From Nostoc sp. (GTDB lineage Bacteria; Cyanobacteriota; Cyanobacteriia; Cyanobacteriales; Nostocaceae), in the NCBI RefSeq assembly GCF_036918015.1, contig NZ_JBALEO010000077.1, positions 64,126-128,125 of the forward strand: a DNA stretch of 64,000 bases, read 5' to 3'. Positions 9,836 to 48,661 of this stretch are shown one piece after another (the stretch's first letter is position 1; each line of letters starts with the position of its first letter). The position numbers were made by a program, and so were the translations under genes. A model generated the notes under the pieces. The model had not been told where the DNA came from. It made no database searches and was given only the letters and a program-made list of their open reading frames with translations.

Positions 9836-11410
9836 ATGCATAGACGAGCGCCCTTATATTATTTCTTTTTAGGAGTATTAACGAGTTCTAGCTGTTTGGT
9901 CTTCAGTGTAGCAGCCCAAGTCCCATCTAATTCGCAGCAGTCCTCGACTCGGAATGAAGCTGAAACTGCTAGTTGGTTTGAAGCCCATCGCACACAGCCA
10001 GCGGCTTTACGAGCATTTGTACAGCGAATGCCGAAGGGTGGAGATATCCACAGTCATCTAAGCGGGGCTGTGTACGCAGAAAAATATCTGGAGTGGGCTG
10101 CCACCGATGGGTATTGTGTGAATCCAAAAGCGGGGGCTTTAGTTGAACCTAAGGCTTGCGGTCAGGACAGTAGCTATTTTCCAGCCTCAGAATTGTTAAA
10201 CCGAACATCTGTTTATGATTCCCTAATAAATCGTTGGTCTACTCGTAACCTCCAATTTGCTGGAAAATCAGGACACGACCAATTTTTTGAAGCTTTTAGT
10301 GGTTTTGGGCCAATATCAGACTCTATGAGCCGTCGGGATGATATGGTCGCGTCAGTAGCAAATCGGGCAGCTTCGCAGCATATTACCTATCTAGAGTTAA
10401 TGCTTACCGTTCAAGGCAGTGAGGTTCGACAGCTAGGGCGTGAAGTTGGTTGGAATAAAGATTTGCAAGAGATGCACCGTCAATTGCTCAAACGAGGATT
10501 AACCAAGCTAGTGACACTCGGCAACCAGCAATTTGCACAGTTGGAGCGCGAAGTCTCGAAAACACTCGGTTGCGGCACTCCATCGGCACAGCCTGGATGT
10601 GCAGTGACGGTGCGCTATTTGCAGCAAACGACAAGAACAAAGTCGCCCGTTGAAGTGTTTGCTCAGTTAGCTTATGCCTTTGCACTAGATTCATCAGATT
10701 CGCGGGTAGTTGGCATCAATCTTGTCGCCCCAGAAGACAACCCGATTGCACTGCGCGACTACACCCTGCAAATGCAAATGCTGCAATTTTTCAAACGCCA
10801 ATATCCCAATGTCAAGGTCGCGCTCCATGCCGGAGAGTTAACTCTGGGGTTGGTGACCACAGAGGATTTACGTTTTCATATTCGGCAAGCTGTAGAAGTG
10901 GCACAGGCATCTCACATCGGACATGGTGTGGATATTCTTTTTGAGGAGCGTCCCTTCGAGTTGATGGAGCAAATGCGGCGACGTGGCGTGTTAGTCGAAA
11001 TCTGCCTGACCAGTAATGAAGTCATTTTGAATGTCCAGGGAGATCAGCATCCTTTTAGGGAGTATTGGAAGGCTGGAGTACCAATGACCCTTGCTTCTGA
11101 TGATGAAGGCATTTCCCGCATCGATTTGAGTAATGAGTATTTGTTAGCAGCAACGAGATATGGGCTGGGATATAAAGACCTCAAGCGACTGGCTCGCAAT
11201 GGCTTAGAATATAGTTTCGCTCCGGGAAATAGTCTCTGGAAGTCGTCTGAGTTTAAGGCAATGGTTCCAGCTTGTGCAAGCGATACCCCTGGTGAAACCT
11301 CTGTTTCTCAAGGGTGCAGTGCCTTTTTGAACAAAAGCGATCGCGCCCGGATTCAATGGCAGCTAGAGTCAGAATTTGCTCGGTTTGAGTCATTGCAGAA
11401 CTGGCTTTGA
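9836..11410 (+). CDS. Adenosine deaminase-family protein with signal peptide
   Basis: MPKGGDIHSHLSG, ALHAGE, HIGHG, LASDDEG metal ligands; N-terminal hydrophobic signal ending VAA-Q. Confidence 0.85.
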   Translation: MHRRAPLYYFFLGVLTSSSCLVFSVAAQVPSNSQQSSTRNEAETASWFEAHRTQPAALRAFVQRMPKGGDIHSHLSGAVYAEKYLEWAATDGYCVNPKAGALVEPKACGQDSSYFPASELLNRTSVYDSLINRWSTRNLQFAGKSGHDQFFEAFSGFGPISDSMSRRDDMVASVANRAASQHITYLELMLTVQGSEVRQLGREVGWNKDLQEMHRQLLKRGLTKLVTLGNQQFAQLEREVSKTLGCGTPSAQPGCAVTVRYLQQTTRTKSPVEVFAQLAYAFALDSSDSRVVGINLVAPEDNPIALRDYTLQMQMLQFFKRQYPNVKVALHAGELTLGLVTTEDLRFHIRQAVEVAQASHIGHGVDILFEERPFELMEQMRRRGVLVEICLTSNEVILNVQGDQHPFREYWKAGVPMTLASDDEGISRIDLSNEYLLAATRYGLGYKDLKRLARNGLEYSFAPGNSLWKSSEFKAMVPACASDTPGETSVSQGCSAFLNKSDRARIQWQLESEFARFESLQNWL

Positions 11411-11461
11411 TTGACTTTCACGAAAAATGTAGAGCAACGAATTATTTGACCACAGGGACAC

Positions 11462-11609
11462 ATATCATGTCCACATAATTTAGTTATGCTAACCACTGTC
11501 ATTACACCCCACCCCCAACCTCTCCCCGCTTGCGGGGAGGGGAGACAAAGCGTAGCTTTGGCGGGGTGGGGTTCTGCGGGTTTAATAAGCAATCAAGCGG
11601 ATATGATAT
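11462..11609. mobile_element. MITE-like element, ATATCATGTCC-end family (copy 1)
   Basis: Ends atatcatgtcc / ggatatgatat; internal hairpin ctctccccgcttgcggggaggggag and ctttggcggggtggggtt shared with 30814..30950. Confidence 0.7.
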
Positions 11610-11649
11610 TAGAAGTCAAGTTTTTCATACCTGCAAGCTTTACTGCAAA

Positions 11650-11698
11650 CAATACCTTTGCCAAAATTTTTCTAGGCTCTTATTTTGGCAAAGGTATT
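11650..11698. terminator. Inverted repeat, possible terminator
   Basis: aatacctttgccaaaa...ttttggcaaaggtatt 16 bp perfect arms between convergent genes. Confidence 0.45.
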
Positions 11699-11915
11699 GG
11701 TTGAGTAACAGTTATTAGCCCATACTGCCAAAGAACCATAGGCAACAAACTTGGAGTTTGCTCAACCTAACATAAAGCCAAGCTAATAGTAGCAGCAGGA
11801 ATTGCCGACTACTCTAGTAAAAAGTTAATTAATTTCGTGTATTTTCTAGATTCCATAATAAAAATACGCAAAAAATTTGAGGAACTTGTGAGGAAGCGCA
11901 AGATTATCTCTTCAA

Positions 11916-12107
11916 TCAAACATCAACATTTATCTGTTCTATCTGTCTAGCGGCTTTATCCCAAAGCTTTGCTGAAGTCTCATCTTGCCAATGAGTTCTC
12001 AGATTTTCCGCTTTTTTATGACATATTCGCTCTAACATTTCTAATATTGCGGATAATGTCAATTTATTAATTAATGATTCTAAAATCTCCATATATTCTT
12101 TTTGCAT
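11916..12107 (-). CDS. Small hypothetical protein
   Basis: 63 aa helical ORF (CHKKAENLRTHWQDETSAKLWDKAA) in an otherwise empty intergenic region. Confidence 0.65.
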   Translation of the reverse strand: MQKEYMEILESLINKLTLSAILEMLERICHKKAENLRTHWQDETSAKLWDKAARQIEQINVDV

Positions 12108-12271
12108 GATACTTACCTCCTTAAGGTCAACTGATATATGCTGACAAAACTAATGTGCCCTCAAACTATAAATATAAATTAAGATTTGTTGCAGAGCGTG
12201 ACTAATATTTTGCCAGTTTATACACGCAGTTTAGCCTATTTTGAAGACTCAATTTTGGGAATTTATTTGTA

Positions 12272-12528
12272 ATACCAATTCAATTAATGATTGCAACACA
12301 TCCTTGGGTAAAGACGCGATGAATCGCGTCTCTACAAATGGTCTATTTGTCGCATTCTTTTTTCCAATTGGTATAACATATAGGACTCATATTTGATTTT
12401 TGAAATATACGTAGGGTGCGTTATGCCTCTGGCTAACGCACCAAAGCCTTCGGATGGTGCGTTACGCTACGCGATAACACACCCTACGCATACTTAGATT
12501 TTTTCATAAATCAAATCGGATTCCTATA
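12272..12528. mobile_element. Two adjacent MITE/REP-like elements
   Basis: 12272-12374: ends ataccaatt/aattggtat with internal agacgcgatgaatcgcgtctctac. About 12378-12528: ends tataggactcatatttga/tcaaatcggattcctata with GTAGGGTGCGTT...ACACCCTAC REP-like palindromes. Confidence 0.7.
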
Positions 12529-12771
12529 GAAAAAAACTGTTTAGTTCAAATATTTCCTGACAAGTTCCTCAAGTGTTTTATCTAAATTAAAAATAGGGTT
12601 GGATAACTAAAAAGTATGAATTGTAATGCGATGGGCTATATTCTACCGGAGGCGATCGCTAGCCGCGCCAGCCCGGATGCCTAGCCAATTGACTATATTC
12701 TCACGCAAAAAAACAAAGACGCAAAATTATATTTTGCGTCTTTGCTTTTTTATCAGAAATCATTCTCAGAT

Positions 12772-13410
12772 TTACTTGTTAGGCTGAGGAGTCATCCGCA
12801 GATAAGGTTTGATTTCCTCATAACCTTTGGGGAATTTCTGTTTTAGTACTTCTGGATCTTTCAGCGAGGGGACAATTACAACATCGTCTCCATCTTTCCA
12901 GTCAGCTGGTGTCGCCACGCTGTAATTATCAGTCAATTGCAGAGAATCAATCACCCGCAAAAGTTCGTCAAAATTGCGTCCTGTGCTGGGAGGATAGGTG
13001 AAAGAGAGACGGAGTTTCTTGTTGGGGTCTATTACAAAAACCGATCGCACTGTCACAGATGCATTAGCATTAGGGTGGATCATGTCGTAAAGCTCAGAAA
13101 CCTTGCGATCGGCATCCGCCAAAATTGGGTAGTTAAGAGTGGTGCTTTGAGTTTCTTCAATGTCTCCCACCCAGCCTTTGTGGGATTCTACGTCATCAAC
13201 GCTGAGTGCGATCGCTTTGACATTGCGTTTGTCAAATTCTGGTTTGAGCTTGGCAACTGTGCCAAGTTCTGTTGTACAAACAGGTGTAAAATCAGCAGGG
13301 TGAGAGAACAGCACAACCCAGCTGTCACCTGCCCATTGGTAAAAATCGATGTCGCCGTGTGTTGAGGCTTGCGTAAAGTTGGGTACTGTGTCACCTAGAC
13401 GGAGAGCCAT
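12772..13410 (-). CDS. 1-Cys peroxiredoxin (Prx6 family)
   Basis: FSHPADFTPVCTTE, YPPSTGRNFDELLRVIDSLQL, ATPADW. Confidence 0.95.
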   Translation of the reverse strand: MALRLGDTVPNFTQASTHGDIDFYQWAGDSWVVLFSHPADFTPVCTTELGTVAKLKPEFDKRNVKAIALSVDDVESHKGWVGDIEETQSTTLNYPILADADRKVSELYDMIHPNANASVTVRSVFVIDPNKKLRLSFTYPPSTGRNFDELLRVIDSLQLTDNYSVATPADWKDGDDVVIVPSLKDPEVLKQKFPKGYEEIKPYLRMTPQPNK

Positions 13411-13724
13411 GAGAGATTCCCTGTAGTTAGAAAAGCATATATATTCTAGTATGCTATCATCCCATAAAACCCCTATTCCCCAATCGGGCTTTAGCGGTTT
13501 GAAACAAAATTTTAGGTTGTCAGCGCCCTCAGATAAAGGACGCTTTTCAAAACCTTATATGTTAATTGGGATTGGTTTTGTGATTGCGGATATTGTTGTC
13601 AAAGCAGTTCTAGCGCCTATTTGGCAAAAACTGCTGTTATCTGCGTTGGGTTAAAAGAGAAGTCAGAATTCAAAAATTCAATTCTGAATTCTGACTCCTG
13701 ACTCCTGAATTCTTTTTATGAAAT

Positions 13725-14915
13725 TCATTTGTTTGCCAGAATTTTTTGGTAGGCTTGGATTGTTTGCTTTGCGATCGCATCCCAGCTAAAATTTTCCAAG
13801 GCATATTTTTGTGCGTTTAATCCCCGTCGTTGGCGTTCTGCGGGATTTTCCAAAGCCTCTTGTAGTAACTCTACCAATGCTTGGACATCTGTTGCACCTA
13901 CCCAACCCGACTCGCTATCACGTATTTGTTGACAAATATGCACTTGGTCAGAAATGACTACGGGTACACCTGCAACCATCGCTTCAGCTACAGCAATCCC
14001 AAAATTTTCGTAGTAGGAAGGTAAGACGAATAAATCAGCAGCTTGTAGTAAACTAACTTTGAGTTCACCACTGACAAAGCCAGTGATTGTAGTGTGCGAT
14101 CGCAATGGTGAATTTTGAATTTGGGATATTATCTTTTGTTCGTAATCTGGATCTTGAGGATTTGTCCCAGCTAAGACAAAATGAAACTTATAACCAACCG
14201 CTAACAGCTTCTCTAGCGCCGGAATCAACAAATTCAACCCCTTTTTCGGGTCAATTCGTGACATAAACAGCACTAACGGTACATCTTTTGGTATTTCTAA
14301 CTGACTACATACATTTTTAATAGAAGATTGACGGGGAATCACACCCAAGGGAATCACCAAATCTGGCGTAGATACTCCAAATCGTTCTGATATTTTAGCT
14401 TCTTGGTCGCTAGTAAAATGAATTGCTGCGGCACTAGCTAAATTTTGACGTTCTATAATTGCGACATAAAGCTGTTTTAATTGCTTTTTCTTCTGTAAAT
14501 CAGCCGGATCGAGAGTACCCAAAGGACGGAAAATATAAGGTAGCTTTTGCTGACGACACACAAGAGCAGCAGCACTAATTATTGGCGAGAATAGAGCGTG
14601 AATATGTGCTATGTCAAACTCGTGAGCATGACGTTTTAACCAGTTTAATAAATCTAGGGAAAATTTGTAGCGACGAAACGGCGCGCAACGAAAATAAATT
14701 ATTTCATAGCCATCTTGTTTAATTGGGCGATTTAAAGGAACATCCAGAGGTGTTTGACCATTATCGCCATTACTATCAGTTGTGAGAATCGTAACTTCTA
14801 CTCCCTCTTTTACTAACGCTGGAGCTAATCCAAGTACCATTTGACTAGGCCCACCGTAAATTAGAGAAATTGAGGGAACAATTTGTAACACTTTCATTTT
14901 TTTGTCATTTGTCAT
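13725..14915 (-). CDS. hpsP: GT4 glycosyltransferase, hormogonium polysaccharide HpsP-like
   Basis: GT-B motifs YGGPS, FMSRIDPKKG, PSYYENFGIAVAEAM; last gene of an hpsL-N-O-P-like order; symbol from recall of family and synteny. Confidence 0.65.
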   Translation of the reverse strand: MTNDKKMKVLQIVPSISLIYGGPSQMVLGLAPALVKEGVEVTILTTDSNGDNGQTPLDVPLNRPIKQDGYEIIYFRCAPFRRYKFSLDLLNWLKRHAHEFDIAHIHALFSPIISAAALVCRQQKLPYIFRPLGTLDPADLQKKKQLKQLYVAIIERQNLASAAAIHFTSDQEAKISERFGVSTPDLVIPLGVIPRQSSIKNVCSQLEIPKDVPLVLFMSRIDPKKGLNLLIPALEKLLAVGYKFHFVLAGTNPQDPDYEQKIISQIQNSPLRSHTTITGFVSGELKVSLLQAADLFVLPSYYENFGIAVAEAMVAGVPVVISDQVHICQQIRDSESGWVGATDVQALVELLQEALENPAERQRRGLNAQKYALENFSWDAIAKQTIQAYQKILANK

Positions 14916-34734: not shown

Positions 34735-35501
34735 TCTAACATTTCTGGCTCAATTCCTAAAGCATTGAGTTGTTCAGCAGAGAGCGATCGCAATTTCTCT
34801 ACAATTCTCTCTCGTTTTTGCCGCTCAATCACAGCACGTTCTTCACCTGTTAGCAGTAAATTTCCTTGTGCATCCCACCACCGCAACCAAGGTAACTCTG
34901 CATTTTGATAAAATCCTTGCCAGATTCCTAACTCTACACCCATAGGAGCAATTGGGTAATGTCCCCGTTCATTAACTTTCATTAATTGATAATTATTATC
35001 GACTAGATGATACACCTCAATCTGAGCTTTTGCTACTTCATAAATCCCATAATAAGGCACTCGAATTGCCTGTTCATAAACCCAAAACTTCCCAACATTT
35101 CCACCTTGCCCTTGAGATGGCGGTGTTTTATCTCGTTCTTCGGAACCATCTCCAGAGACAAATTCAATCACAATCAAGGGCGCGATATACTCCTTCCACA
35201 GCACATAAGAACGCCGCGTTTTACCATCGAGAGTAGGCGGTACATTGGGTACATAAAACCAGTCTGGTGCCTCAGCCCCTTTCTCTGGAGGATCTGTCAA
35301 TCGCCAGTAGATACCTAAATCTTGCCCAATACAATATTGACTATCAGGATGAAGTTCCTCTAAGACAAGTTTAATAGAGTCAGTAAGTAAGATACTTTGG
35401 GGATGCTCTTGCCAGTTTTTCACAAATGTACCATCTGAGTCTGGTAACTGGGTGTGATCGGGTAAAGTTAATGCCGATAGCGAAGTCATAGGCACAACCA
35501 A
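34731..35501 (-). CDS. Uma2-family (DUF820) endonuclease-fold protein
   Basis: LPDHTQLPDSDG, APDWFYVP, PLIVIEFVS, WLRWWD. Confidence 0.88.
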   Translation of the reverse strand: MVVPMTSLSALTLPDHTQLPDSDGTFVKNWQEHPQSILLTDSIKLVLEELHPDSQYCIGQDLGIYWRLTDPPEKGAEAPDWFYVPNVPPTLDGKTRRSYVLWKEYIAPLIVIEFVSGDGSEERDKTPPSQGQGGNVGKFWVYEQAIRVPYYGIYEVAKAQIEVYHLVDNNYQLMKVNERGHYPIAPMGVELGIWQGFYQNAELPWLRWWDAQGNLLLTGEERAVIERQKRERIVEKLRSLSAEQLNALGIEPEMLD

Positions 35502-35688
35502 GATTATGTTTGTATTTCAGTTATTATACTAATAAATCTAACAAGCTTTGTTGGGCTATAAGACTTGAGACTTAGGAATTTTGCACTTGTTAAATTCACA
35601 ATAAAGTATGTTTTTTCAAATTAGAGATACTCACAAAAATACTGTATCTTAATTATTAAGTTTTTCTTTTTTTACTTTGCCTTTGGTA

Positions 35689-36585
35689 TCAGTCCACTGC
35701 TATTTGATAAGTTATCAAGCGTGTATCAAGGTCAACAACTACCGTTCCTCCCCGATATTTATCCACCTGTTGCCAAACATCATAGCCCATCAGAATTGCC
35801 TTCTCCCAATCACCCAGCGAACACTGAGAAACTTCTAAATGGGATGTCATATTTTTGATAGTCTTCAATAGTTGGTAATCTAATGTTGAAACGCCTTCTA
35901 AGAAACCGTGATCTTTGGCATAGCTAAATACAAGTGCTGATATACCTTCCTCAATTGCTACTGCACGCCCGCCGTCTTCAACCTCGTCAATACTAGAATT
36001 ACTTTTGCGCTTACATTTAAGAATACTACGAGTGACAACCGACCAACCTAAAACTGCGGCGTAGGAAAAATGGAAAACATCATGAAAGCGGTAGCCATCG
36101 CTTGTATAGGAATTATCGGTGAGGTCATTTCCAATTTGTTCTTTGTTGATAAATGCCTTCATCTTGATTGAGTTATCTTTGCTTATCTCCGTAATTTCTA
36201 CTTCAAACTGTCGTGGTAAACTTTCATTTTCGGGAAAGTCATTGTCGAATATGTAGGTTGTAGCTTTATCATCTATTGGTGCTGAATCTCTCCATCCCCA
36301 ACGGTCACGGCACTTTCTCATATTATCTTCCGCAATTTCTTCCAAATTAAGGTTAAACTTGCTTGCCAAGTTGGAAATATACCAAAGCATATCTCCCAAT
36401 TCTTCCGCGATGCCTTCTTTAAATAGTTTATGTGCATCACCATCGCGTAAATGTTTTTTATACTCAGTCATCAATGAGCCAACTTCACCTATCAAGCCGA
36501 GAAGAGGTATTATTAGTTCAGTACCTTCTACAGCAGGAATCTGGTTTGTATTAAGTGCTTGTGTTTGATACTCAGAAAATTTCAT
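35689..36585 (-). CDS. MazG-like NTP pyrophosphohydrolase fused to a MazG_C-type domain
   Basis: MKFSEYQ, LGLIGEVGSL, EELGDMLWY; C-terminal DGYRFHDVFH, RKS, DEVEDGGRAVAIEEG; GGAGA RBS. Confidence 0.85.
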   Translation of the reverse strand: MKFSEYQTQALNTNQIPAVEGTELIIPLLGLIGEVGSLMTEYKKHLRDGDAHKLFKEGIAEELGDMLWYISNLASKFNLNLEEIAEDNMRKCRDRWGWRDSAPIDDKATTYIFDNDFPENESLPRQFEVEITEISKDNSIKMKAFINKEQIGNDLTDNSYTSDGYRFHDVFHFSYAAVLGWSVVTRSILKCKRKSNSSIDEVEDGGRAVAIEEGISALVFSYAKDHGFLEGVSTLDYQLLKTIKNMTSHLEVSQCSLGDWEKAILMGYDVWQQVDKYRGGTVVVDLDTRLITYQIAVD

Positions 36586-36693
36586 AATGAAACTTCTCCA
36601 ATTTCAAGTTTGTTGATTAAAGCGATTTTTATAGGGATAAAATACAAATATTATGATACTTAAAAAGTATTGCTATTAAAGTTTTAAGTTCAG

Positions 36694-37236
36694 CTATATT
36701 TGTAGGGAAAAATTAGGAAAAATAATTAATTTTGTACTGTCTTCAACTTTAAGATATAGCGGATGGTTTGGGTATCCCTTCTTTGTTAGCTTGAGGCAGT
36801 GAAGAGTTTTTTTACCAGAAATTAGACTTAGCACTTCTTTGTCACGGTCACGGTTATTTCTGGGATACTTACTCGCTCCCCATGCCAAAATAATTAAGTC
36901 AGCGCGTTCTGTTGCTGATTTAATATAAGAGTTATTTTCTAAACCCACAGGATCATTTACTTGATGAAGTTCACGGGGTTTTGGAGTAATATAAGCAAAT
37001 AGATTGACCACTTCAAGAGAACCATAACCCCAAAATTCAGCAAATTTAATACATCTAGTGAGTGTCCTATCATCTTTGTCAGCATCGGCAGTACTTGGGT
37101 TAAGCATCACAAAAGTAACTTGCGGCAAATTCTCAACCCATTTACGCCCTAGTAAATATCGATACTTTTCAGTGCTATCAATCTTGGCATATCCTTTCAT
37201 TTCGATATGTTTTACTCTGAATTGCTGTTTATTCAT
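36694..37236 (-). CDS. DUF1643 domain protein
   Basis: YRYLLGRKW, FVMLNPSTAD, VVNLFAY, LAWG, GYPNHPLY. Confidence 0.88.
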   Translation of the reverse strand: MNKQQFRVKHIEMKGYAKIDSTEKYRYLLGRKWVENLPQVTFVMLNPSTADADKDDRTLTRCIKFAEFWGYGSLEVVNLFAYITPKPRELHQVNDPVGLENNSYIKSATERADLIILAWGASKYPRNNRDRDKEVLSLISGKKTLHCLKLTKKGYPNHPLYLKVEDSTKLIIFPNFSLQI

Positions 37237-37255
37237 GAATAAATAATAGAATGCA

Positions 37256-38443
37256 TCAAAATAGACATAACTGTTGAGATTGTTCTGTATTTACGTTTTG
37301 TAAGGCTTTTAATTTTTTATTCTGAGTCTCTTGCTTATATTTTTTATGCAGTTTTGATATATTATTCGGAATTTCAGATGTTGTTTTTACCAGAGAATCT
37401 AATTGCAAAGATAATTGCTGATAACTACTATTATTGATTTTTTGCAAATTAGGAATATCTAATTTTGGCAATCTCTGTGCTAAACTTTCTTGTACTTTAT
37501 CGTTAATACGCCATTTTGGTGGATAAAAATAATCAATTGGTTGATGCGTTGAAGTAAATTTTGATTTTATCTTTTTGCGATTACTTTTCAAATCAGGAAA
37601 TGCTGCTCGGCAGTATTTATCAGTTTCACAAAATAAATTTTGGCAATCTATAGCTTGTAGCGGACGACCCCAAAGTGATTGAAAATTTAACCCCAAACGC
37701 TGAAATTCTTTCTCTTGGTTTTCAGTCATCCAATGAATAACATCTGTGTATGTTTTACCATCTGTATCAATGAAACACTTGTCGATACCACGTTCGGCTC
37801 CTGGGCCTGCTATAGTAAAACTGTTTTCGTCAAAGTTGATAATTTCACTATAGTTAATATCTGTCGCTAATTGGTAAGCCATAAACTTACCTAGCAATGG
37901 ATATTCTTGAATAATCTTAAAAACGTCTTCAAAATTTTGGGTTTTGACTATGCGTTTAACTACTCTATCTTGGACAACCATTTTATCAATTAATGCCAAA
38001 TGATTCTGGTGTTTTTTATCATAACCAAACTCCTTGCTGGCACAGGACATATACGCACTTGTGTAAATGACATATCCAAGATTCATAGCCTCTTGTAATA
38101 TATCTGAGTATACATTTGAGTCGAAATTAGACAGTGTAATATAATCTCCTATTTTGTTTTCTAAGTATTTCCATGTTTCTATTTTATTAAAGATTTTAAA
38201 TAGTAGAATCCGTAAAATTACTTCTTCTTCATTTTGGCTCCTCTTCTCATCGTAAATTACGTTTTTGATCAGATATTGTGAAACGCGATCGCTTGCTCGA
38301 TATGCATTACAAAATTTATAAGTATTAATAATCGGATCACTCGTCCACGGTGGTGGTAAGTTGTTAATTTTGTTGAAGAATACTTCCTGGCGCGTAGCAG
38401 CAAATCGCCAATAAGTATCAAAAATTTCTTGTCTTACTTGCAT
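37256..38443 (-). CDS. 5-hydroxymethyluracil DNA kinase-like protein (aGPT-Pplase1 family); ORF open to 38554 but ATG 38443 has an AGGAG RBS
   Basis: YWRFAATRQEVF, PWTSDPII..YKFCNAYRASDRVSQYLI, LLFKIFNKIETW, FMAYQLATDINYS, GPGAERG, IDCQNLFCETDKY. Confidence 0.8.
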   Translation of the reverse strand: MQVRQEIFDTYWRFAATRQEVFFNKINNLPPPWTSDPIINTYKFCNAYRASDRVSQYLIKNVIYDEKRSQNEEEVILRILLFKIFNKIETWKYLENKIGDYITLSNFDSNVYSDILQEAMNLGYVIYTSAYMSCASKEFGYDKKHQNHLALIDKMVVQDRVVKRIVKTQNFEDVFKIIQEYPLLGKFMAYQLATDINYSEIINFDENSFTIAGPGAERGIDKCFIDTDGKTYTDVIHWMTENQEKEFQRLGLNFQSLWGRPLQAIDCQNLFCETDKYCRAAFPDLKSNRKKIKSKFTSTHQPIDYFYPPKWRINDKVQESLAQRLPKLDIPNLQKINNSSYQQLSLQLDSLVKTTSEIPNNISKLHKKYKQETQNKKLKALQNVNTEQSQQLCLF

Positions 38444-38616
38444 ACACTTTTCTCCTGGTTTGTCGTCATCATTTTCAAACCTATTTTTTATCCATGAGGC
38501 AAGATTATGCGACAACTGCCGCATAATCTTCGTATCCGATACCATTTCTAGCAAAGCATCCTTAAAGCCGATCGCAGCAACTCTTCTTAACTTTTATCCA
38601 CTGAATAATATGATGT

Positions 38617-41832: not shown

Positions 41833-42477
41833 ATGACGCTTACCGTCGAAGCTAGCAGCCTATCCCTTAATGATGTTCATCGCTTTCTAAAACTAGAAGA
41901 ACTTTCCAATGGTTCATTCACAGACTTCTTAACTCTAGAACCACTCTCTGAGTTTGAACAGCAGGATTTATTGCGAATCAGAAACGACTTCCGTCGCTAT
42001 TTAAGCGCAGGTAAAATTTCTGAAGGGTTGGTTAAATTCTTAACGATCGCACCCTTAATGCGCCTAGCTGGATTTTACGATGTGCCGATTCGGTTGACAA
42101 TGGAAGACAGCATTGCGATCGCAGTCGAAGATGAAGACAGAAGAATTACTGGACGGATGGATATTTTAGCAATCAATAATCCTCAAAGTAATATTGCGCC
42201 GCCCTTTTGGGTTGTGGTGATTGAAACGAAAAATAGTGCGGTTGAAGTGGGTGAGGGTTTACCTCAATTACTCACTTATGCTTTTAAAAGTTTAGATCAA
42301 CAACCATCTGTTTGGGGTTTAGCAACTAACGGACTGCGTTATCAATTTGTTTATTTAAGACATGACGAACAGCCAACTTATCAGTTAATGCCATTATTAA
42401 ATCTGAATGAATCTCCCGGTGCAATTAAGTTGTTACAAGTTCTTAAAAGCATCTGCAAGTTACCAAATTTTCAGTAA
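41833..42477 (+). CDS. Type I restriction HsdR N-terminal-like nuclease-fold protein
   Basis: GRMDILA...IETKNS, GLPQLLTYA, VWGLATNG; paralogue of 2095..2760. Confidence 0.7.
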   Translation: MTLTVEASSLSLNDVHRFLKLEELSNGSFTDFLTLEPLSEFEQQDLLRIRNDFRRYLSAGKISEGLVKFLTIAPLMRLAGFYDVPIRLTMEDSIAIAVEDEDRRITGRMDILAINNPQSNIAPPFWVVVIETKNSAVEVGEGLPQLLTYAFKSLDQQPSVWGLATNGLRYQFVYLRHDEQPTYQLMPLLNLNESPGAIKLLQVLKSICKLPNFQ

Positions 42478-45949: not shown

Positions 45950-47167
45950 ATGACAAAAGTTTGGAACATTATTTGGCATAATGAACCTTTTCATTACACA
46001 ATTGCTTTTGTGTTAGTAATTGCAATTATTATCGAATTTTGCACATTATGGGAGTATTGGCGCTCAGAGTGTGGAACAACTGAAGCCGGAATTAAATTTT
46101 TGAGTAATTTTAAAAAGGGTAAAAATGTCAAGCCTTCAGAAAAGGATAGTCGTTGGTTAAAAGACCATCTAGGAACTGATGACTCTAGTAAATTCAGACA
46201 ACAAGATGGCAAGTTCGTACTGATAAAGTATCCATCTGTCTTAGCCCACCCAATACCTCGTAGTTCCCTACGCTTCGTGACAACCTTGTGTACTGCCATT
46301 GGTCTTTTAGGAACCTTTTATGGTATACAACAGGGACTCCAAGGAATCAATTTATCTACAGAAAATACCAAAGAACTGATGACTGCCAGTAAAGAGCTAC
46401 TGGTGGGAATGAAAACAGCTTTCTCGACTTCCATGATGGGGCTTGGTTCTGGTAGCTTGTTTCTTCTAGTTTTGTTTGGGCGTGATTCACTACGGCAGAA
46501 ACTACGTGATAGTTTGCGTCAGAAATTGAAGGCGATCGCAACTTTAAAAACGGCAGACAATAGCAACCATGAAGTAGCTGAAGCACTTAGTCTTGTAGCA
46601 AAAAGCTTGACCGGGTTAAAGCAGCTAAATGCAGAAGGCATTGGTCAAGCTGTAGGTAGGAGTATTGCAGAACAATTCGCAGGTTTAAATCAGTTGTCAG
46701 CCCAAGCTATTGGTCAAGCCGTAGGTCAGCAGATTAAGCCAGCCTTGGGAGAAATATTCAAAGAACAGAAAAAACTCCGAGAAATTCAAGAAAACCAGGG
46801 ACAGAGAGTTTTAGAAGAACTCATCAAAGATTTGCGAATTCAGGTACTCGAACCGATTGCAGATCGGCTAGATAAAAGTGCAGAATTAACCCAACAAGCT
46901 TCCGAAGCTGTGCTGACTCTGCATAGAGAATTGAGTGGTATATCTCAAAGTTTGGCAAGTTCCATCCTGACAATTGAGAACTTTCAAAAAAAGACTTTGG
47001 TAGAACTCCAAGAATTTGCTAAGAGTTTGGGAGACACTCTCAATCAATTTAAAACAGATACAAAAGGGGTTTTACAGCAAACAGCCGACGAAATCAATCG
47101 AGCTGTAGATCACTATTTATCACTACATTACTCCAGCTTGCACAAAAGGATGCACCCAAACGAGTAG
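45950..47167 (+). pseudogene. zorA: Zorya ZorA-like MotA/ExbB protein, tail truncated
   Basis: TM1, then TAIGLLGTFYGI and GMKTAFSTSMMGL, then a coiled-coil tail; last about 18 aa read zorB DNA out of frame. Confidence 0.7.
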
Positions 47168-47649
47168 TAATTGGCAATGTTGTGGGACAGATGAAAAGCA
47201 ACAATATCAATGTTAAAGTCAACCCAGAAACCGGGGATGTCAGTATTCAAGAATCAATTCTTTTTGCCAAGGGAAGCACAGAACTTAAACCAGAAGGGAA
47301 AGCCTTCCTACGCCGCTTTATTCCTGTTTACAGTGGTGTTATTTTCTCAAAACCAGAATTTGATAAGGAAATTAGCCGTGTAATTATAGAAGGTCACACT
47401 AGCTCAGATGGAGACGACAAAACCAATCTACAACTAAGCTTGTTGCGATCAGCATCAGTTTATAACTACATTTTCTATGATATGAATTTCCCTACAAAAG
47501 TACCTTTAAGCCATAAAATATTAGCTGCTGGGCGTGGAGAAATTGAATCTGACAAGAAACGTGATAATCCAGGCGATCGCAAAGTAGTTTTCCGCTTTCA
47601 GTTTCGCAGTGATGAGTTAAAGAAAGATATCCTGAAAACCCCTCTTTAA
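47113..47649 (+). pseudogene. zorB: Zorya ZorB-like OmpA/MotB protein lacking its N-terminus
   Basis: In-frame LFITTLLQL (TM end) from 47113; ILFAKGSTEL, IIEGHTS, NLQLSLLRS, RKVVFRF OmpA-like motifs; no start or conserved TM Asp upstream. Confidence 0.75.
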
Positions 47650-47662
47650 AGGAGCTAAAACA

Positions 47663-48661
47663 TTGAATTCTCAGTTTTCCATTCCTTCCCTACCTGAAAC
47701 TCCCCAGTGTAGTCCTAATCAACTTATTCAGCTTGCAAGTAACTTACCAGATGTAACAATATCAATACCAAATGTTGATAAAATATTGGAAGCTATTGAA
47801 CAGGGTAAAGCTGATCAAGTAAGTAAGTTGGACTGGGTTTACTGCATCCATGCTAAAGCACAGTGGGATCAGCAAAATCTTGACCGATGCAGAAAAACAT
47901 CAGCAGCTATTTGGAAGGTAGCAATTTCTAATTTATGGTTGCAACATCAGCTATTGTGGCGTTTAGCTCTTTATTATGGTGATCAGCAAAAACAGGTGTT
48001 AGCACAGTCTTTAGTTGAATCTTTTGATATTTTTGCTAATTCTGATTTAGTTAGTCACCTCCTACCAGTTCAAATTATTCGGGCGCTTTGCAGTAAACAA
48101 GCAGGTAGAGAATTAGCAAAAATTCTTTGTGAACAGCGTATTAATCGAACCGAATTGCTAAACAACATCCGAGAAGATTTACCTGTTTGGATTCCATTAC
48201 TCACGAAATTTATAGAAGACATAACTCCCTGTTTTACTACAATTATTTATCCAAATCAGCAGCAGGTAAAATGGCTGTTAAGTTGTTTGGGTGAAATGTC
48301 AGAGAGTCAGCAAATAAAGGCTGTTAATCATTTGCTCACTAATGTTTCTAATGATATAGCAAGCAATCATTCTTTATTGGTTGATTGGTTGCGAAATAAC
48401 TATAGAAATGGTGAAAAATGGTATAAACTTTCAGATCCTGCAAGGCAAAGACTTCGAGAGTGGATTGGAGGTATCAATTATGGTGATTTCCAAAAGCTAG
48501 TAAATCTAATATTGAACAAGCTCGATTTACCAGACTTCGAGTCAAATCGGCTATGTAGTCGCAGGGACTTTTGGGCTAATTACAGTAACCGCTTTGAACG
48601 GCTTCGCATCTTGTTACCCAAGACATCACAAATTGCCATAGGGTATCAAATCAGAGATTGA
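47663..48661 (+). pseudogene. ZorC-like (EH-signature family) protein, probably C-terminally truncated
   Basis: Follows zorB; ends with RRDFWANYSNRFERLRILL, the start of the EH-signature region; no EF/EH motif or zorD follows. Confidence 0.6.

What the first reader, a model, noticed from the sequence alone, without database searches (positions are those of the whole stretch)
35689..38443. Candidate anti-phage operon: 5hmU DNA kinase-like + DUF1643 + MazG/MazG_C, with no base-synthesis enzyme
Seen: three co-oriented, tightly spaced (19 and 108 nt gaps), visibly AT-rich genes inserted between Uma2 genes and a TPR gene. Established: the aGPT-Pplase1 family was shown in thymidine-hypermodifying phages to be a 5-hydroxymethyluracil DNA kinase, and MazG_C-fused MazG proteins occur in bacterial gene clusters with this family. 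Those clusters usually also carry a thymidylate-synthase-like hydroxymethylase and a P-loop nucleotide kinase, neither of which is here. Inference: without a way to make 5hmU, the module probably acts on foreign DNA. The kinase could mark 5hmU in phage DNA, DUF1643 (NPS...HP motif layout reminiscent of uracil-DNA-glycosylase-fold proteins) could excise or cut the marked base, and MazG could deplete or sanitise the modified dNTP. This would be a modified-base-directed defence that I do not know to be described in this three-gene form.
Basis: partly seen in the sequence, partly recalled or inferred. Interest (0 to 1): 0.88.

Follow-up and report, generated by a model that had tools for sequence, protein, structure and literature searches.

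The report
Clamp-tethered DNA-base-modifier candidate defence cassette

Summary
Three co-oriented minus-strand genes lie at 37256-38443, 36694-37236 and 35689-36585. They match PF18723, DUF1643 and MazG+MazG_C, and GC is 0.31-0.35. They form a clean 3,039-bp indel (35494-38532) between a TPR gene and a Uma2 gene. Four congeners have this site empty.

PF18723 (aGPT-Pplase clade 1, now named 'HMUDK_hel') is not the 5hmU DNA kinase. The kinase is the P-loop family PF18748, which is absent here. Gene A is a helix-hairpin-helix paralogue of the amino-acid:DNA transferases, and its near-invariant Cys aligns on their catalytic Cys. The UDG fold for DUF1643 found no support from Foldseek or hhalign.

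New findings:
- Gene A and MazG-MazG_C are an obligate pair: adjacent in 62 of 66 loci, and fused in some proteins.
- The Nostocales form carries a conserved C-terminal QLCLF beta-clamp-binding-like motif in 36 of 37 proteins.
- DUF1643 is the fastest-evolving member of the cassette.
- Sister cassettes carry CapH/CapP-like immune regulators or a membrane-anchored dCTP-deaminase-fold gene.
- The genome has no hydroxymethylase besides its housekeeping thymidylate synthase.

My verdict is a probable inducible or fork-directed anti-phage system. It is a new variant of a predicted kind (DefensePredictor 2026; the DS-4 relative has been validated). The mechanism is inferred, not shown.

The parts
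35494..38532 (.). Cassette-specific segment (3,039 bp indel), low GC
   Evidence: blastn and tblastn against the syntenic empty site in four same-genus genomes lacking the cassette; GC 0.31-0.35
37256..38443 (-). Gene A: aGPT-Pplase clade 1 / PF18723 ('HMUDK_hel'), 395 aa. HhH DNA-glycosylase-like base-flipping enzyme; no kinase domain
   Evidence: Pfam E=1e-108; 30% identity and E=3e-34 to the DS-4 protein; hhalign to ADDT E=3.9e-4
37625..37630 (-). Codons for Cys272-Glu273 within DCQNLFCETDKYCR, the candidate catalytic dyad
   Evidence: E273 invariant and C272 at least 90% conserved in 40 diverse homologues; C272 aligns on the catalytic Cys of the amino-acid:DNA transferases
37400..37417 (-). 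Internal QLSLQL hexapeptide in the disordered tail (Hda-type clamp-binding-like motif)
   Evidence: QLSLxL present in 27 of 37 type I homologues
37259..37273 (-). C-terminal QLCLF pentapeptide (beta sliding-clamp-binding consensus QL[SD]LF)
   Evidence: QLxLF in 36 of 37 type I homologues, at the very C-terminus in 31, after a poorly conserved K/Q/S-rich linker
36694..37236 (-). Gene B: DUF1643 (PF07799), 180 aa. Alpha/beta protein of unknown function and the fastest-evolving member
   Evidence: Pfam E=3.9e-47; AF2 pLDDT 89; no PDB fold match; mean pairwise identity 0.63 against 0.79 and 0.81 for the neighbours
36298..36513 (-). Gene C N-domain: all-alpha MazG NTP pyrophosphohydrolase with intact E34/E41/E61/E62/D65
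   Evidence: Pfam MazG; PDB sequence hits to iMazG, YpjD and DCTPP1; Foldseek prob 1.0 to DCTPP1 and iMazG; residues invariant in 37 sequences
35704..36258 (-). Gene C C-domain: MazG_C (PF18722). Called a 'predicted nucleotide kinase' in the literature; no solved structural relative
   Evidence: Pfam E=4.5e-83; no PDB fold match beyond the N-domain; no hit in 50,697 phage records
38501..38530 (.). 14-nt-arm palindrome (AAGATTATGCGACA..TGCCGCATAATCTT), 58-87 nt upstream of the gene A ATG, at the edge of the indel. Possible operator, or terminator of the TPR gene
   Evidence: the repeat finder I9, 93% complementary; function not tested

Best explanation
The trio is an accessory, horizontally exchanged conflict cassette, most likely an anti-phage system that acts on pyrimidines in replicating DNA.

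Shown:
- The core is an obligate pair: a PF18723 protein (gene A) and MazG-MazG_C (gene C).
- Gene A belongs to the HhH, DNA-glycosylase-like aGPT-Pplase superfamily. It keeps a Cys at the position of the catalytic Cys of the amino-acid:DNA transferases.
- In the Nostocales form, gene A ends in a conserved beta-clamp-binding-type motif.
- The MazG domain keeps its metal-binding acidic residues and most resembles DCTPP1 and integron MazG.
- The cell has no hydroxymethylase and no P-loop 5hmU kinase.

Inferred:
- Gene A is recruited by the sliding clamp to freshly replicated DNA. There it flips out a pyrimidine and attacks C6 with Cys272.
- MazG-MazG_C, which replaces the P-loop kinase found beside or fused to PF18723 in other systems, either activates the target base substituent by phosphoryl or pyrophosphoryl transfer from an NTP, or removes the competing (modified) dNTP.
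- The host does not make 5-hydroxymethyl-pyrimidines. The chemically competent substrates would therefore be phage-made bases (5hmU, 5hmC or their precursors) or misincorporated dU. The outcome would be an adduct, a DNA-protein crosslink or a break that blocks phage replication.
- DUF1643, the rapidly diversifying member, is either the specificity or sensor subunit, or a hydrolase that processes the product.
For: - Domain identities.
- Pairing of A and C: adjacent in 62 of 66 cyanobacterial loci.
- Rosetta-stone fusions: HMUDK_hel+MazG+MazG_C in P0244, P0261 and P0275. The alternative fusion Thymidylate_kin+HMUDK_hel occurs in P0242, P0247 and P0250.
- Catalytic Cys: near-invariant C272 and invariant E273, aligned to the ADDT catalytic Cys. 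ADDT chemistry is from PMC8989533 and PMC13458397.
- Clamp motif: conserved in 36 of 37 proteins.
- MazG fold and residues.
- Accessory nature: 3,039-bp indel with the site empty in 4 congeners; low GC; 8 of 25 species genomes in the genus and 8 of 301 in the class.
- Immune context: truncated ZorA, ZorB and ZorC at 45950-48661. Type II sister cassettes begin with a CapH-like HTH (PADLOC capH E=1.6e-16) plus an M78 peptidase, the regulator pair of many immune operons (bioRxiv 10.1101/2022.04.27.489752 and 10.64898/2026.05.16.725639). A pAgo and a PD-(D/E)XK nuclease lie next door in L067-L070.
- Literature: DS-4 with a PF18723 protein (30% identical to gene A) protects E. coli. aGPT-Pplase, MazG, MazG-C and dUTPase systems are predicted defence systems (PMC13092281).
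- The MazG_C domain is absent from 50,697 phage records, so this is a cellular module, not a phage self-modification module.
- DUF1643 diversifies faster than its neighbours.
Against: - No PADLOC model hits any of the three proteins, and nothing has been tested experimentally for this architecture.
- The window's version has no recognisable regulator, sensor or toxic effector.
- Clamp tethering and a house-cleaning-type MazG would fit a repair or self-modification role equally well.
- The hhalign link to ADDT is modest (probability 36%), and the ADDT metal-binding Glu/Thr are Gln/Asn here.
- The function of PF18723 itself has never been shown. In the M6 reconstitution, the glycinyl-thymidine intermediate formed without gp55, which I infer to be the PF18723 member.
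- The 'kinase' label for MazG_C is a prediction that I could not verify. Iyer 2013 and Burroughs 2015 were not readable here.
- I made no proper statistical test of enrichment of defence genes around the cassette.
- In Nostoc the cassette sits at one fixed chromosomal site rather than in a classic variable island.
Confidence: 0.5

Rival explanations
1. Gene A is a 5hmU DNA kinase that marks phage 5hmU, DUF1643 is a UDG-fold glycosylase that excises the marked base, and MazG sanitises the modified dNTP.
For: [quoted passage not shown] The cassette and genome have no hydroxymethylase. DUF1643's MLNPS...HPLY layout is co-linear with UDG motifs A and B in a low-stringency hhalign register. Nodularia phages carry PF18723 homologues, so T-hypermodifying phages probably infect this host group.
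Against: The demonstrated kinase is the P-loop family PF18748, a separate gene in M6-like phages. Gene A has no P-loop. Foldseek found no UDG among the best 50 PDB matches for a confident DUF1643 model, and hhalign gave a probability of 0.2%.
Confidence: 0.07
2. Self-DNA modification. The cassette hypermodifies a pyrimidine in the host's own newly replicated DNA, with the clamp tether acting as in a maintenance enzyme, to protect it from nucleases or to mark self.
For: Phage relatives of gene A sit in self-modification clusters. The clamp-binding tail suits co-replicative marking. No toxin or effector is visible in the three-gene form. A NADAR+PF18723+DNA-methylase fusion exists (P0349).
Against: There is no hydroxymethylase or other source of a reactive C5 substituent and no partner nuclease conserved across loci. 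The Uma2 neighbours occur only in the syntenic Nostoc loci. DNA-damage-type CapH/CapP switches in sister cassettes argue for induced rather than constitutive action.
Confidence: 0.15
3. Accessory repair and sanitation module. MazG clears an abnormal pyrimidine dNTP (dUTP, 5hmdUTP, oxidised dCTP). The clamp-bound glycosylase-like gene A and DUF1643 remove the same base from nascent DNA.
For: The MazG domain is structurally closest to the house-cleaning enzymes DCTPP1 and iMazG. Clamp-binding motifs are typical of repair proteins (established knowledge). Gene A has the HhH glycosylase-like fold (PMC8989533).
Against: The cassette is low in GC, an indel, and patchily distributed. DUF1643 diversifies quickly. 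Related cassettes carry immune-type regulators and have defence neighbours. A catalytic Cys aligned with a transferase nucleophile is not glycosylase chemistry.
Confidence: 0.12
4. Nucleotide-pool defence. On infection, MazG-MazG_C hydrolyses dNTPs or a phage-specific modified dNTP. Gene A and DUF1643 serve only as sensors or regulators.
For: dNTP depletion is an established defence strategy (established knowledge, not checked here). 15 of 37 relatives add a dCTP-deaminase-fold gene. DefensePredictor highlights MazG, MazG-C and dUTPase systems.
Confidence: 0.1

Closest known systems
DS-4 ('NTTI') of DefensePredictor (DeWeirdt, Mahoney & Laub, Science 2026; PMC13092281)
   Same: It contains a PF18723 protein 30% identical to gene A (E=3e-34), including the D..N..CE.DK.CR motif. 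It is a cellular operon built from nucleotide-modification-type enzymes, and it gave measurable, weak anti-phage protection in E. coli.
   Different: DS-4 has a TS-like enzyme, a dNMP kinase, a TIR protein and Nmad2. This cassette has none of these. It has MazG-MazG_C, DUF1643 and a clamp-binding tail instead.
DefensePredictor predicted (untested) systems: 'MazG-C + dUTPase + aGPT-Pplase' and 'MazG + MazG-C + NMAD + UDG' (Fig. 6F and S12 of PMC13092281)
   Same: The same core domains, aGPT-Pplase and MazG/MazG_C. The four-gene relatives of this cassette add a dUTPase-superfamily (DCD) gene.
   Different: The window's copy lacks the DCD gene. DUF1643 is not named among those domains in the text or legends I could read, and the figures themselves are not held. 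Nothing has been validated.
Phage thymidine-hypermodification clusters (M6, ViI, SP10, PhiW-14; Lee 2018 and 2021)
   Same: PF18723 is a standard member of these clusters. It sits next to the P-loop 5-HMUDK in M6-like phages and is fused to it in SP10 gp186.
   Different: The phage clusters have a dUMP hydroxymethylase, the P-loop kinase, ADDT (PF18724) and tailoring enzymes, and they modify the phage's own DNA. Phage homologues are at most 29% identical to gene A. MazG_C is absent from phages.
CapH/CapP-regulated immune operons (Lau et al.; bioRxiv 10.1101/2022.04.27.489752)
   Same: Type II sister cassettes (Coleofasciculaceae, Pseudanabaena, Leptolyngbya) start with a CapH-like HTH and an M78 peptidase upstream of PF18723 and MazG-MazG_C.
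   Different: The window's type I cassette has no such regulators.
Clamp-binding DNA-processing enzymes (Pol IV, UmuC, Hda, MutS; eukaryotic UNG2 and DNMT1 with PCNA)
   Same: A C-terminal QLxLF motif, with QLSLF and QLNLF in some homologues, follows a flexible linker.
   Different: No base-modifying or glycosylase-like bacterial enzyme with this tether is known to me. Binding is not tested.

Membership tests
5-hmdU DNA kinase proper (P-loop, PF18748 HMUDK_HMUD1) | P-loop (Walker A) nucleotide-kinase domain matching PF18748 or a thymidylate-kinase-like model | tested here: not met
   Gene A matches only PF18723. The kinase of an M6-like phage is a separate 187-aa PF18748 protein. No PF18748 match in the genome (no positive control).
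aGPT-Pplase clade 1 (PF18723, 'HMUDK_hel') | Full-length HMM match above the gathering score | tested here: met
   363 bits against a cut-off of 25, profile positions 2-280 of 281.
aGPT-Pplase clade 1 (PF18723, 'HMUDK_hel') | Conserved GPG hairpin and D-x-Q-N-x-x-C-E-x-D-K-Y-x-R motif | tested here: met
   G213, G215, G219, D266, E273 and K276 are invariant; Q268, C272, Y277 and R279 are at least 90% conserved in 40 diverse homologues. All are present in gene A.
Amino-acid:DNA transferase (ADDT, PF18724, aGPT-Pplase clade 2) | HMM match to PF18724 | tested here: not met
   Only PF18723 is reported for gene A.
Amino-acid:DNA transferase (ADDT, PF18724, aGPT-Pplase clade 2) | Catalytic Cys in the E-T-x-x-C motif, with metal-binding Glu and Thr | tested here: inconclusive
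   hhalign E=3.9e-4, probability 36%. C272 aligns on the ADDT Cys, but the Glu and Thr positions are Gln268 and Asn269.
UDG superfamily (for DUF1643) | UDG alpha/beta fold detectable by structure comparison | tested here: not met
   For the pLDDT-89 model, the best PDB E-value was 7.6e-3 (transketolase). No UDG appears in the top 50. BFVD returns only DUF1643 proteins and weak Toprim matches. Ranks beyond 50 were not visible.
UDG superfamily (for DUF1643) | Profile similarity, with motif A (G-x-x-P-G) and motif B (H-P-S/A) | tested here: inconclusive
   hhalign against 30 family-4 UDGs gave a probability of 0.2%. The low-stringency register does place MLNPS on GE.PG and HPLY on HPAY.
MazG all-alpha NTP pyrophosphohydrolase | Four-helix fold with the E-x2-E...E-E-x2-D metal-binding motif | tested here: met
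   PF03819 at 23.8 bits against a cut-off of 22. E34, E41, E61, E62 and D65 are invariant. Foldseek probability 1.0 to DCTPP1 and iMazG.
MazG_C (PF18722), 'predicted nucleotide kinase' | HMM match | tested here: met
   277.9 bits against a cut-off of 29.7.
MazG_C (PF18722), 'predicted nucleotide kinase' | Kinase activity or a kinase fold | not testable with these tools
   No PDB structural match for residues 110-298. The label comes from PMC13092281 and Pfam, and the source paper was not readable here.
DS-4 type system (validated) | TS-like enzyme, dNMP kinase, TIR and Nmad2 alongside PF18723 | tested here: not met
   None of these is in the cassette. The only TS-like gene in the genome is the housekeeping one.
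Predicted 'MazG-C + dUTPase + aGPT-Pplase' system | dUTPase/DCD-fold gene in the operon | tested here: not met
   tblastn with the relatives' DCD gene finds nothing in the window. It is present in 15 of 37 type I relatives.
Beta-clamp-binding proteins | QL[SD]LF-type pentapeptide, usually terminal, after a flexible linker | tested here: met
   QLCLF forms the last five residues. QLxLF occurs in 36 of 37 homologues, including QLSLF and QLNLF. Physical binding is not testable here.
Known defence systems in PADLOC 2.0 | Match to any PADLOC protein model | tested here: not met
   No families at E<=0.01 for any of the three proteins.

The most novel reading that the evidence does not exclude
This would be a replication-fork-tethered immune enzyme that turns a phage's own anti-restriction DNA chemistry against it. 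Gene A, bound to the sliding clamp, would capture 5-hydroxymethyl- or phosphomethyl-pyrimidines as they enter nascent phage DNA. With MazG-MazG_C supplying the phosphoryl or pyrophosphoryl activation, its Cys nucleophile would convert them into covalent adducts or DNA-protein crosslinks that stall replication. DUF1643 would be the rapidly diversifying specificity or anti-inhibitor subunit. Such a system would be a defence that recognises hypermodified-thymidine precursors, and the first bacterial base-modifying enzyme known to use the beta clamp.
Probability: 0.15. Interest if true: 0.85.

Novelty: new variant of a known kind. Interest (0 to 1): 0.55.

Why it matters
Cellular operons built from phage-type nucleotide-modification enzymes have only just been recognised as immune systems. 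One has been validated (DS-4) and several are predicted, and none is understood mechanistically.

This cassette is the minimal form: no base-synthesis enzyme, no P-loop kinase, no TIR. That isolates the PF18723 + MazG-MazG_C core, whose biochemical activities are both unknown. It also offers three concrete handles for experiments: a candidate catalytic Cys, a beta-clamp-binding tail, and a hypervariable third subunit.

Showing what PF18723 does would also fill the remaining gap in the phage thymidine-hypermodification pathways, where this protein is conserved but has no assigned step. The report further corrects a trap in annotation. The Pfam name 'HMUDK_hel' invites readers to call these proteins kinases, but the kinase is a different domain.

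Tried and rejected
1. NCBIfam and PADLOC scans of the three proteins: no hits.
2. Sequence searches of PDB with DUF1643 as a single sequence and as a profile: nothing. With gene A as a single sequence and as a 40-sequence profile: nothing meaningful.
3. UDG hypothesis for DUF1643: Foldseek against PDB and BFVD, and hhalign against family-4 UDGs, gave no support. A Toprim relationship was also rejected: the matches are weak (E about 3e-3, TM about 0.36) and there is no DxD motif.
4. Looked for a remnant of the DCD gene downstream of gene C in the window: none. 22 of 37 type I loci also lack it, so the three-gene form is a normal variant and not a decayed copy.
5. Considered that the ThyA-like gene on contig C47 might be a hydroxymethylase. 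Rejected, because it is the genome's only thymidylate synthase and it alternates with ThyX across relatives.
6. Considered the flanking Uma2 genes as partner nucleases. Rejected, because they are conserved synteny present at the empty site too and absent from non-Nostoc loci.
7. PADLOC and Pfam tallies on 142 neighbour-gene representatives were too diffuse for an enrichment statement.
8. Promoter and terminator scan: nothing above the shuffled expectation.
9. No direct or inverted repeats mark the indel ends, apart from one palindrome.
11. Iyer et al. 2013 and Burroughs et al. 2015 could not be read.

Full report
**1. Observation**

- gene A, 37256-38443, 395 aa
- gene B, 36694-37236, 180 aa
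- gene C, 35689-36585, 298 aa

The gaps between them are 19 and 108 nt. Pfam gives PF18723 'HMUDK_hel' (E=1e-108), PF07799 DUF1643 (E=3.9e-47), and PF18722 MazG_C (E=4.5e-83) with a weak but above-threshold MazG N-domain. GC falls to 0.31-0.35 over the trio, against 0.39-0.49 around it. The flanks are two Uma2 genes and a TPR gene. PHROGs has families for all three proteins. NCBIfam and PADLOC have none.

**2. It is an indel at a conserved site**

Four genomes of the same genus lack MazG_C. All four keep the order acs-TPR-(0.45-1.8 kb)-Uma2-Uma2-MFS-MFS. The window-specific DNA runs from 35494 to 38532, which is 3,039 bp.

The cassette is patchy. MazG_C occurs in 8 of 25 species genomes of the genus, and PF18723 in 8 of 301 genomes of the class. 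No flanking repeats mark the ends. A 14-nt-arm palindrome lies at 38501-38530, upstream of gene A.

**3. No base-synthesis enzyme**

The genome has a single ThyA-like gene on contig C47. It is fused to a pterin-binding domain and sits beside a DCD-fold gene. The genome has no ThyX. Across 21 relatives, ThyX and this gene are complementary: every genome without ThyX has it, and one genome holds both, with its ThyX carrying an in-frame stop. This gene is therefore the housekeeping thymidylate synthase, not a dedicated hydroxymethylase. No PF18748 P-loop kinase was found in the genome (the tool warns that this search had no positive control).

**4. What gene A is**

The literature does not say this. 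In Lee et al. 2018 and 2021, the 5-HMUDK is the P-loop kinase: M6 gp54, ViI gp67 and gp243, PhiW-14 gp37, and SP10 gp186, whose kinase part is the N-terminal half of a fusion. The aGPT-Pplases are HhH DNA-glycosylase-like proteins. Clade 2 is an amino-acid:DNA transferase acting on 5-phosphomethyl-dU through a catalytic Cys. The M6 intermediate formed in reactions that excluded gp55.

I scanned an M6-like phage directly. It has PF18724 'ADDT', a PLP enzyme, a radical-SAM enzyme, PF18748 'HMUDK_HMUD1' (187 aa), then PF18723, Nmad5, a TS-like gene and an HD protein. PF18723 is therefore a separate protein that follows the kinase. This is also why I take M6 gp55 to be the PF18723 member. Pfam's name 'kinase, helical domain' probably reflects fusions such as SP10 gp186. 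In the 50%-identity representative library, many homologues are indeed Thymidylate_kin+PF18723 fusions.

Gene A has no P-loop. In 40 diverse homologues the invariant or near-invariant residues include the GPG hairpin and D266-x-Q268-N-x-x-C272-E273-x-D-K276-Y-x-R. A profile-profile comparison with 29 ADDT sequences gave E=3.9e-4 (probability 36%). It places C272 on the ADDT catalytic Cys, and Q268/N269 on the ADDT metal-binding Glu/Thr. Gene A is 30% identical (E=3e-34) to the PF18723 protein of the validated E. coli system DS-4, and the same motif is conserved. Phage homologues are at most 29% identical.

**5. A clamp-binding tail**

After the conserved domain, which ends ...YPPKW, type I proteins carry a tail of about 80 residues. 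It is low in complexity and poorly conserved, and it ends in QLCLF. Of 37 type I proteins:
- 36 have QLxLF (33 QLCLF, plus QLSLF, QLNLF and QLHLF), and in 31 it is the very C-terminus.
- 27 also have an internal QLSLxL.

These match the beta sliding-clamp-binding penta- and hexapeptide consensus. That consensus is established knowledge and was not tested here. An earlier first-reader note (e1-5246627) had flagged this motif, and I confirmed its conservation. Type II proteins lack the tail.

**6. Gene C**

The MazG N-domain keeps E34, E41, E61, E62 and D65, all invariant in 37 sequences. Its closest solved relatives by sequence and by fold are integron iMazG, DCTPP1/RS21-C6 and Bacillus MazG/YpjD. 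MazG_C (residues 110-298) has no solved structural relative. It also has no match in 50,697 phage records, where only residues 1-105 hit. Its 'predicted nucleotide kinase' label comes from PMC13092281 and Pfam, and I could not verify it.

**7. Gene B**

A confident AlphaFold2 model (pLDDT 89) shows a beta-alpha-beta three-layer fold. Foldseek finds no PDB match at E<0.001 and no UDG in the best 50. In the viral library it finds only other DUF1643 proteins and weak Toprim matches. hhalign against 30 cyanobacterial family-4 UDGs gives a probability of 0.2%, although the relaxed register does put MLNPS on motif A and HPLY on motif B. The UDG idea therefore remains an unsupported resemblance.

DUF1643 occurs in 142 phage records. 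It also sits beside another pyrimidine-enzyme cassette in Virgibacillus, with thymidylate kinase, HTH plus M78, ACPS, TS and dCMP deaminase next to a CBASS system.

Within the cassette, DUF1643 evolves fastest. Its mean pairwise identity is 0.63, against 0.79 for gene A and 0.81 for gene C. It forms 13 clusters at 80% identity, against 4 and 3. Among locus pairs where A and C are at least 85% and 88% identical, more than half have DUF1643 below 70% (17 loci passed the coverage filters).

**8. The family of cassettes**

A scan of species-representative genomes with a MazG-MazG_C alignment returned 66 loci. All were cyanobacterial, but the search patterns were derived from cyanobacterial sequences. 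PF18723 lies immediately upstream in 62 of them. The other four are contig edges or decayed copies.

- Type I (37-38 loci, mainly Nostocales): PF18723 with the tail, then DUF1643, then MazG-MazG_C. Fifteen add a fourth gene, a DCD-fold protein with a C-terminal membrane helix, and 22 do not. The window's three-gene form is therefore the commoner one.
- Type II (25 loci: Coleofasciculaceae, Pseudanabaena, Leptolyngbya and others): a CapH-like HTH (PADLOC capH E=1.6e-16), an M78 peptidase, an unknown protein of about 270 aa, a tailless PF18723, then MazG-MazG_C. In 8 loci DUF1643 lies divergently downstream.

CapH+CapP is a DNA-damage/ssDNA-responsive switch found on many immune operons. Elsewhere, A and C are fused into one protein (P0244, P0261, P0275). 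Some loci abut a pAgo with a PD-(D/E)XK nuclease.

**9. Literature position**

DefensePredictor (Science 2026) validated DS-4, which consists of TS, a dNMP kinase, PF18723, TIR and Nmad2. It also listed as predicted, untested systems ones containing aGPT-Pplase, MazG, MazG-C, dUTPase, NMAD and UDG domains. None of the 14 papers that mention DUF1643 discusses this context. Earlier notes of this scan describe related cassettes elsewhere: e1-5122969, e1-1253384, e1-2085770 and e1-2696478.

**10. Mechanism**

Sections 1 to 9 are what has been shown. What follows is inference.

- The clamp tail brings gene A to nascent DNA.
- Gene A flips out a pyrimidine and attacks C6 with Cys272, as ADDT does.
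- MazG-MazG_C stands in for the P-loop kinase that partners PF18723 elsewhere. It either activates the C5 substituent or removes the competing dNTP.
- The host makes no hydroxymethyl-pyrimidine. Productive substrates would therefore be phage-made bases or dU, and the product would be an adduct, a crosslink or a break.
- DUF1643 is the diversifying specificity subunit or a processing hydrolase.

I put about 0.5 on 'anti-phage conflict system acting on DNA pyrimidines', and much less on any single chemical detail.

**11. Verdict**

This is a new variant of a predicted kind of system. Interest is moderate to high, because it is a minimal, tractable form whose two core activities are unknown and which has an unexpected clamp tether.

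Noticed in passing
window 45950-48661: Truncated type I Zorya genes: ZorA (405 aa against a 683-position model), ZorB (C-terminal part only) and ZorC (332 of 495), with PADLOC E-values of 2.5e-149, 4.9e-57 and 1.5e-120. This is a decayed defence locus 7.5 kb from the cassette.
   Followed up: partly
G000 contig C47 about 20.4-23.8 kb (L001): The genome's only thymidylate synthase is a 514-aa ThyA-like protein fused to PterinBD-DUF4346. It alternates with ThyX across relatives, which looks like non-orthologous displacement. In G306 both are present, about 2 kb apart, and the ThyX there carries an in-frame TGA. Its divergent neighbour is a 259-aa DCD-fold protein with a C-terminal membrane helix that seems to lack the catalytic Glu (motif DPDWSGQFLIVVHN).
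   Followed up: partly
L003 9584-10279; L004 9774-10481 (relatives): The optional fourth cassette gene is a DCD (dCTP-deaminase-fold) protein with a C-terminal transmembrane helix. Its motif VDPGYSGKLIFAVYN appears to have Ala where the family's catalytic Glu lies. This rests on my memory of E. coli Dcd E138 and is not tested.
   Followed up: no
L045 7990-8802; L048 7986-8810 (type II loci): A conserved protein of about 270 aa, with no Pfam or PADLOC match, sits between the M78 peptidase and PF18723 in 23 type II loci. It is an uncharacterised fifth component.
   Followed up: no
L067-L070, about 11000-14030: A PD-(D/E)XK nuclease plus a Piwi-domain protein (prokaryotic Argonaute) lie immediately downstream of the cassette in Leptolyngbya/Pantanalinema-type genomes.
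   Followed up: no
window 38501-38530: A near-perfect 14-nt-arm palindrome sits at the edge of the cassette indel, 58-87 nt upstream of the gene A start. It is a candidate operator, or the terminator of the TPR gene.
   Followed up: no
L080 (Nodularia phage vB_NspS-kac65v151, 121189-122148): Nine Nodularia siphophage records carry a lone PF18723 homologue (27% identical to gene A) beside a ribonucleotide reductase and a cobalamin adenosyltransferase. Phages of Nostocales may therefore hypermodify thymidine.
   Followed up: partly
window 41833-42477: A 214-aa ORF with a weak PD-(D/E)xK match (PADLOC PD_DExK E=1e-6) lies between acs and another Uma2 gene. The same gene is conserved beside acs in Nostoc sp. 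CHAB 5824.
   Followed up: no
L006 (Virgibacillus halodenitrificans): Here DUF1643 sits next to thymidylate kinase, HTH+M78, a C1 peptidase, ACPS, TS and dCMP deaminase, adjacent to a CBASS system (DncV-like plus Sa_NUDIX). It is a second, different pyrimidine-enzyme cassette that recruits DUF1643.
   Followed up: no
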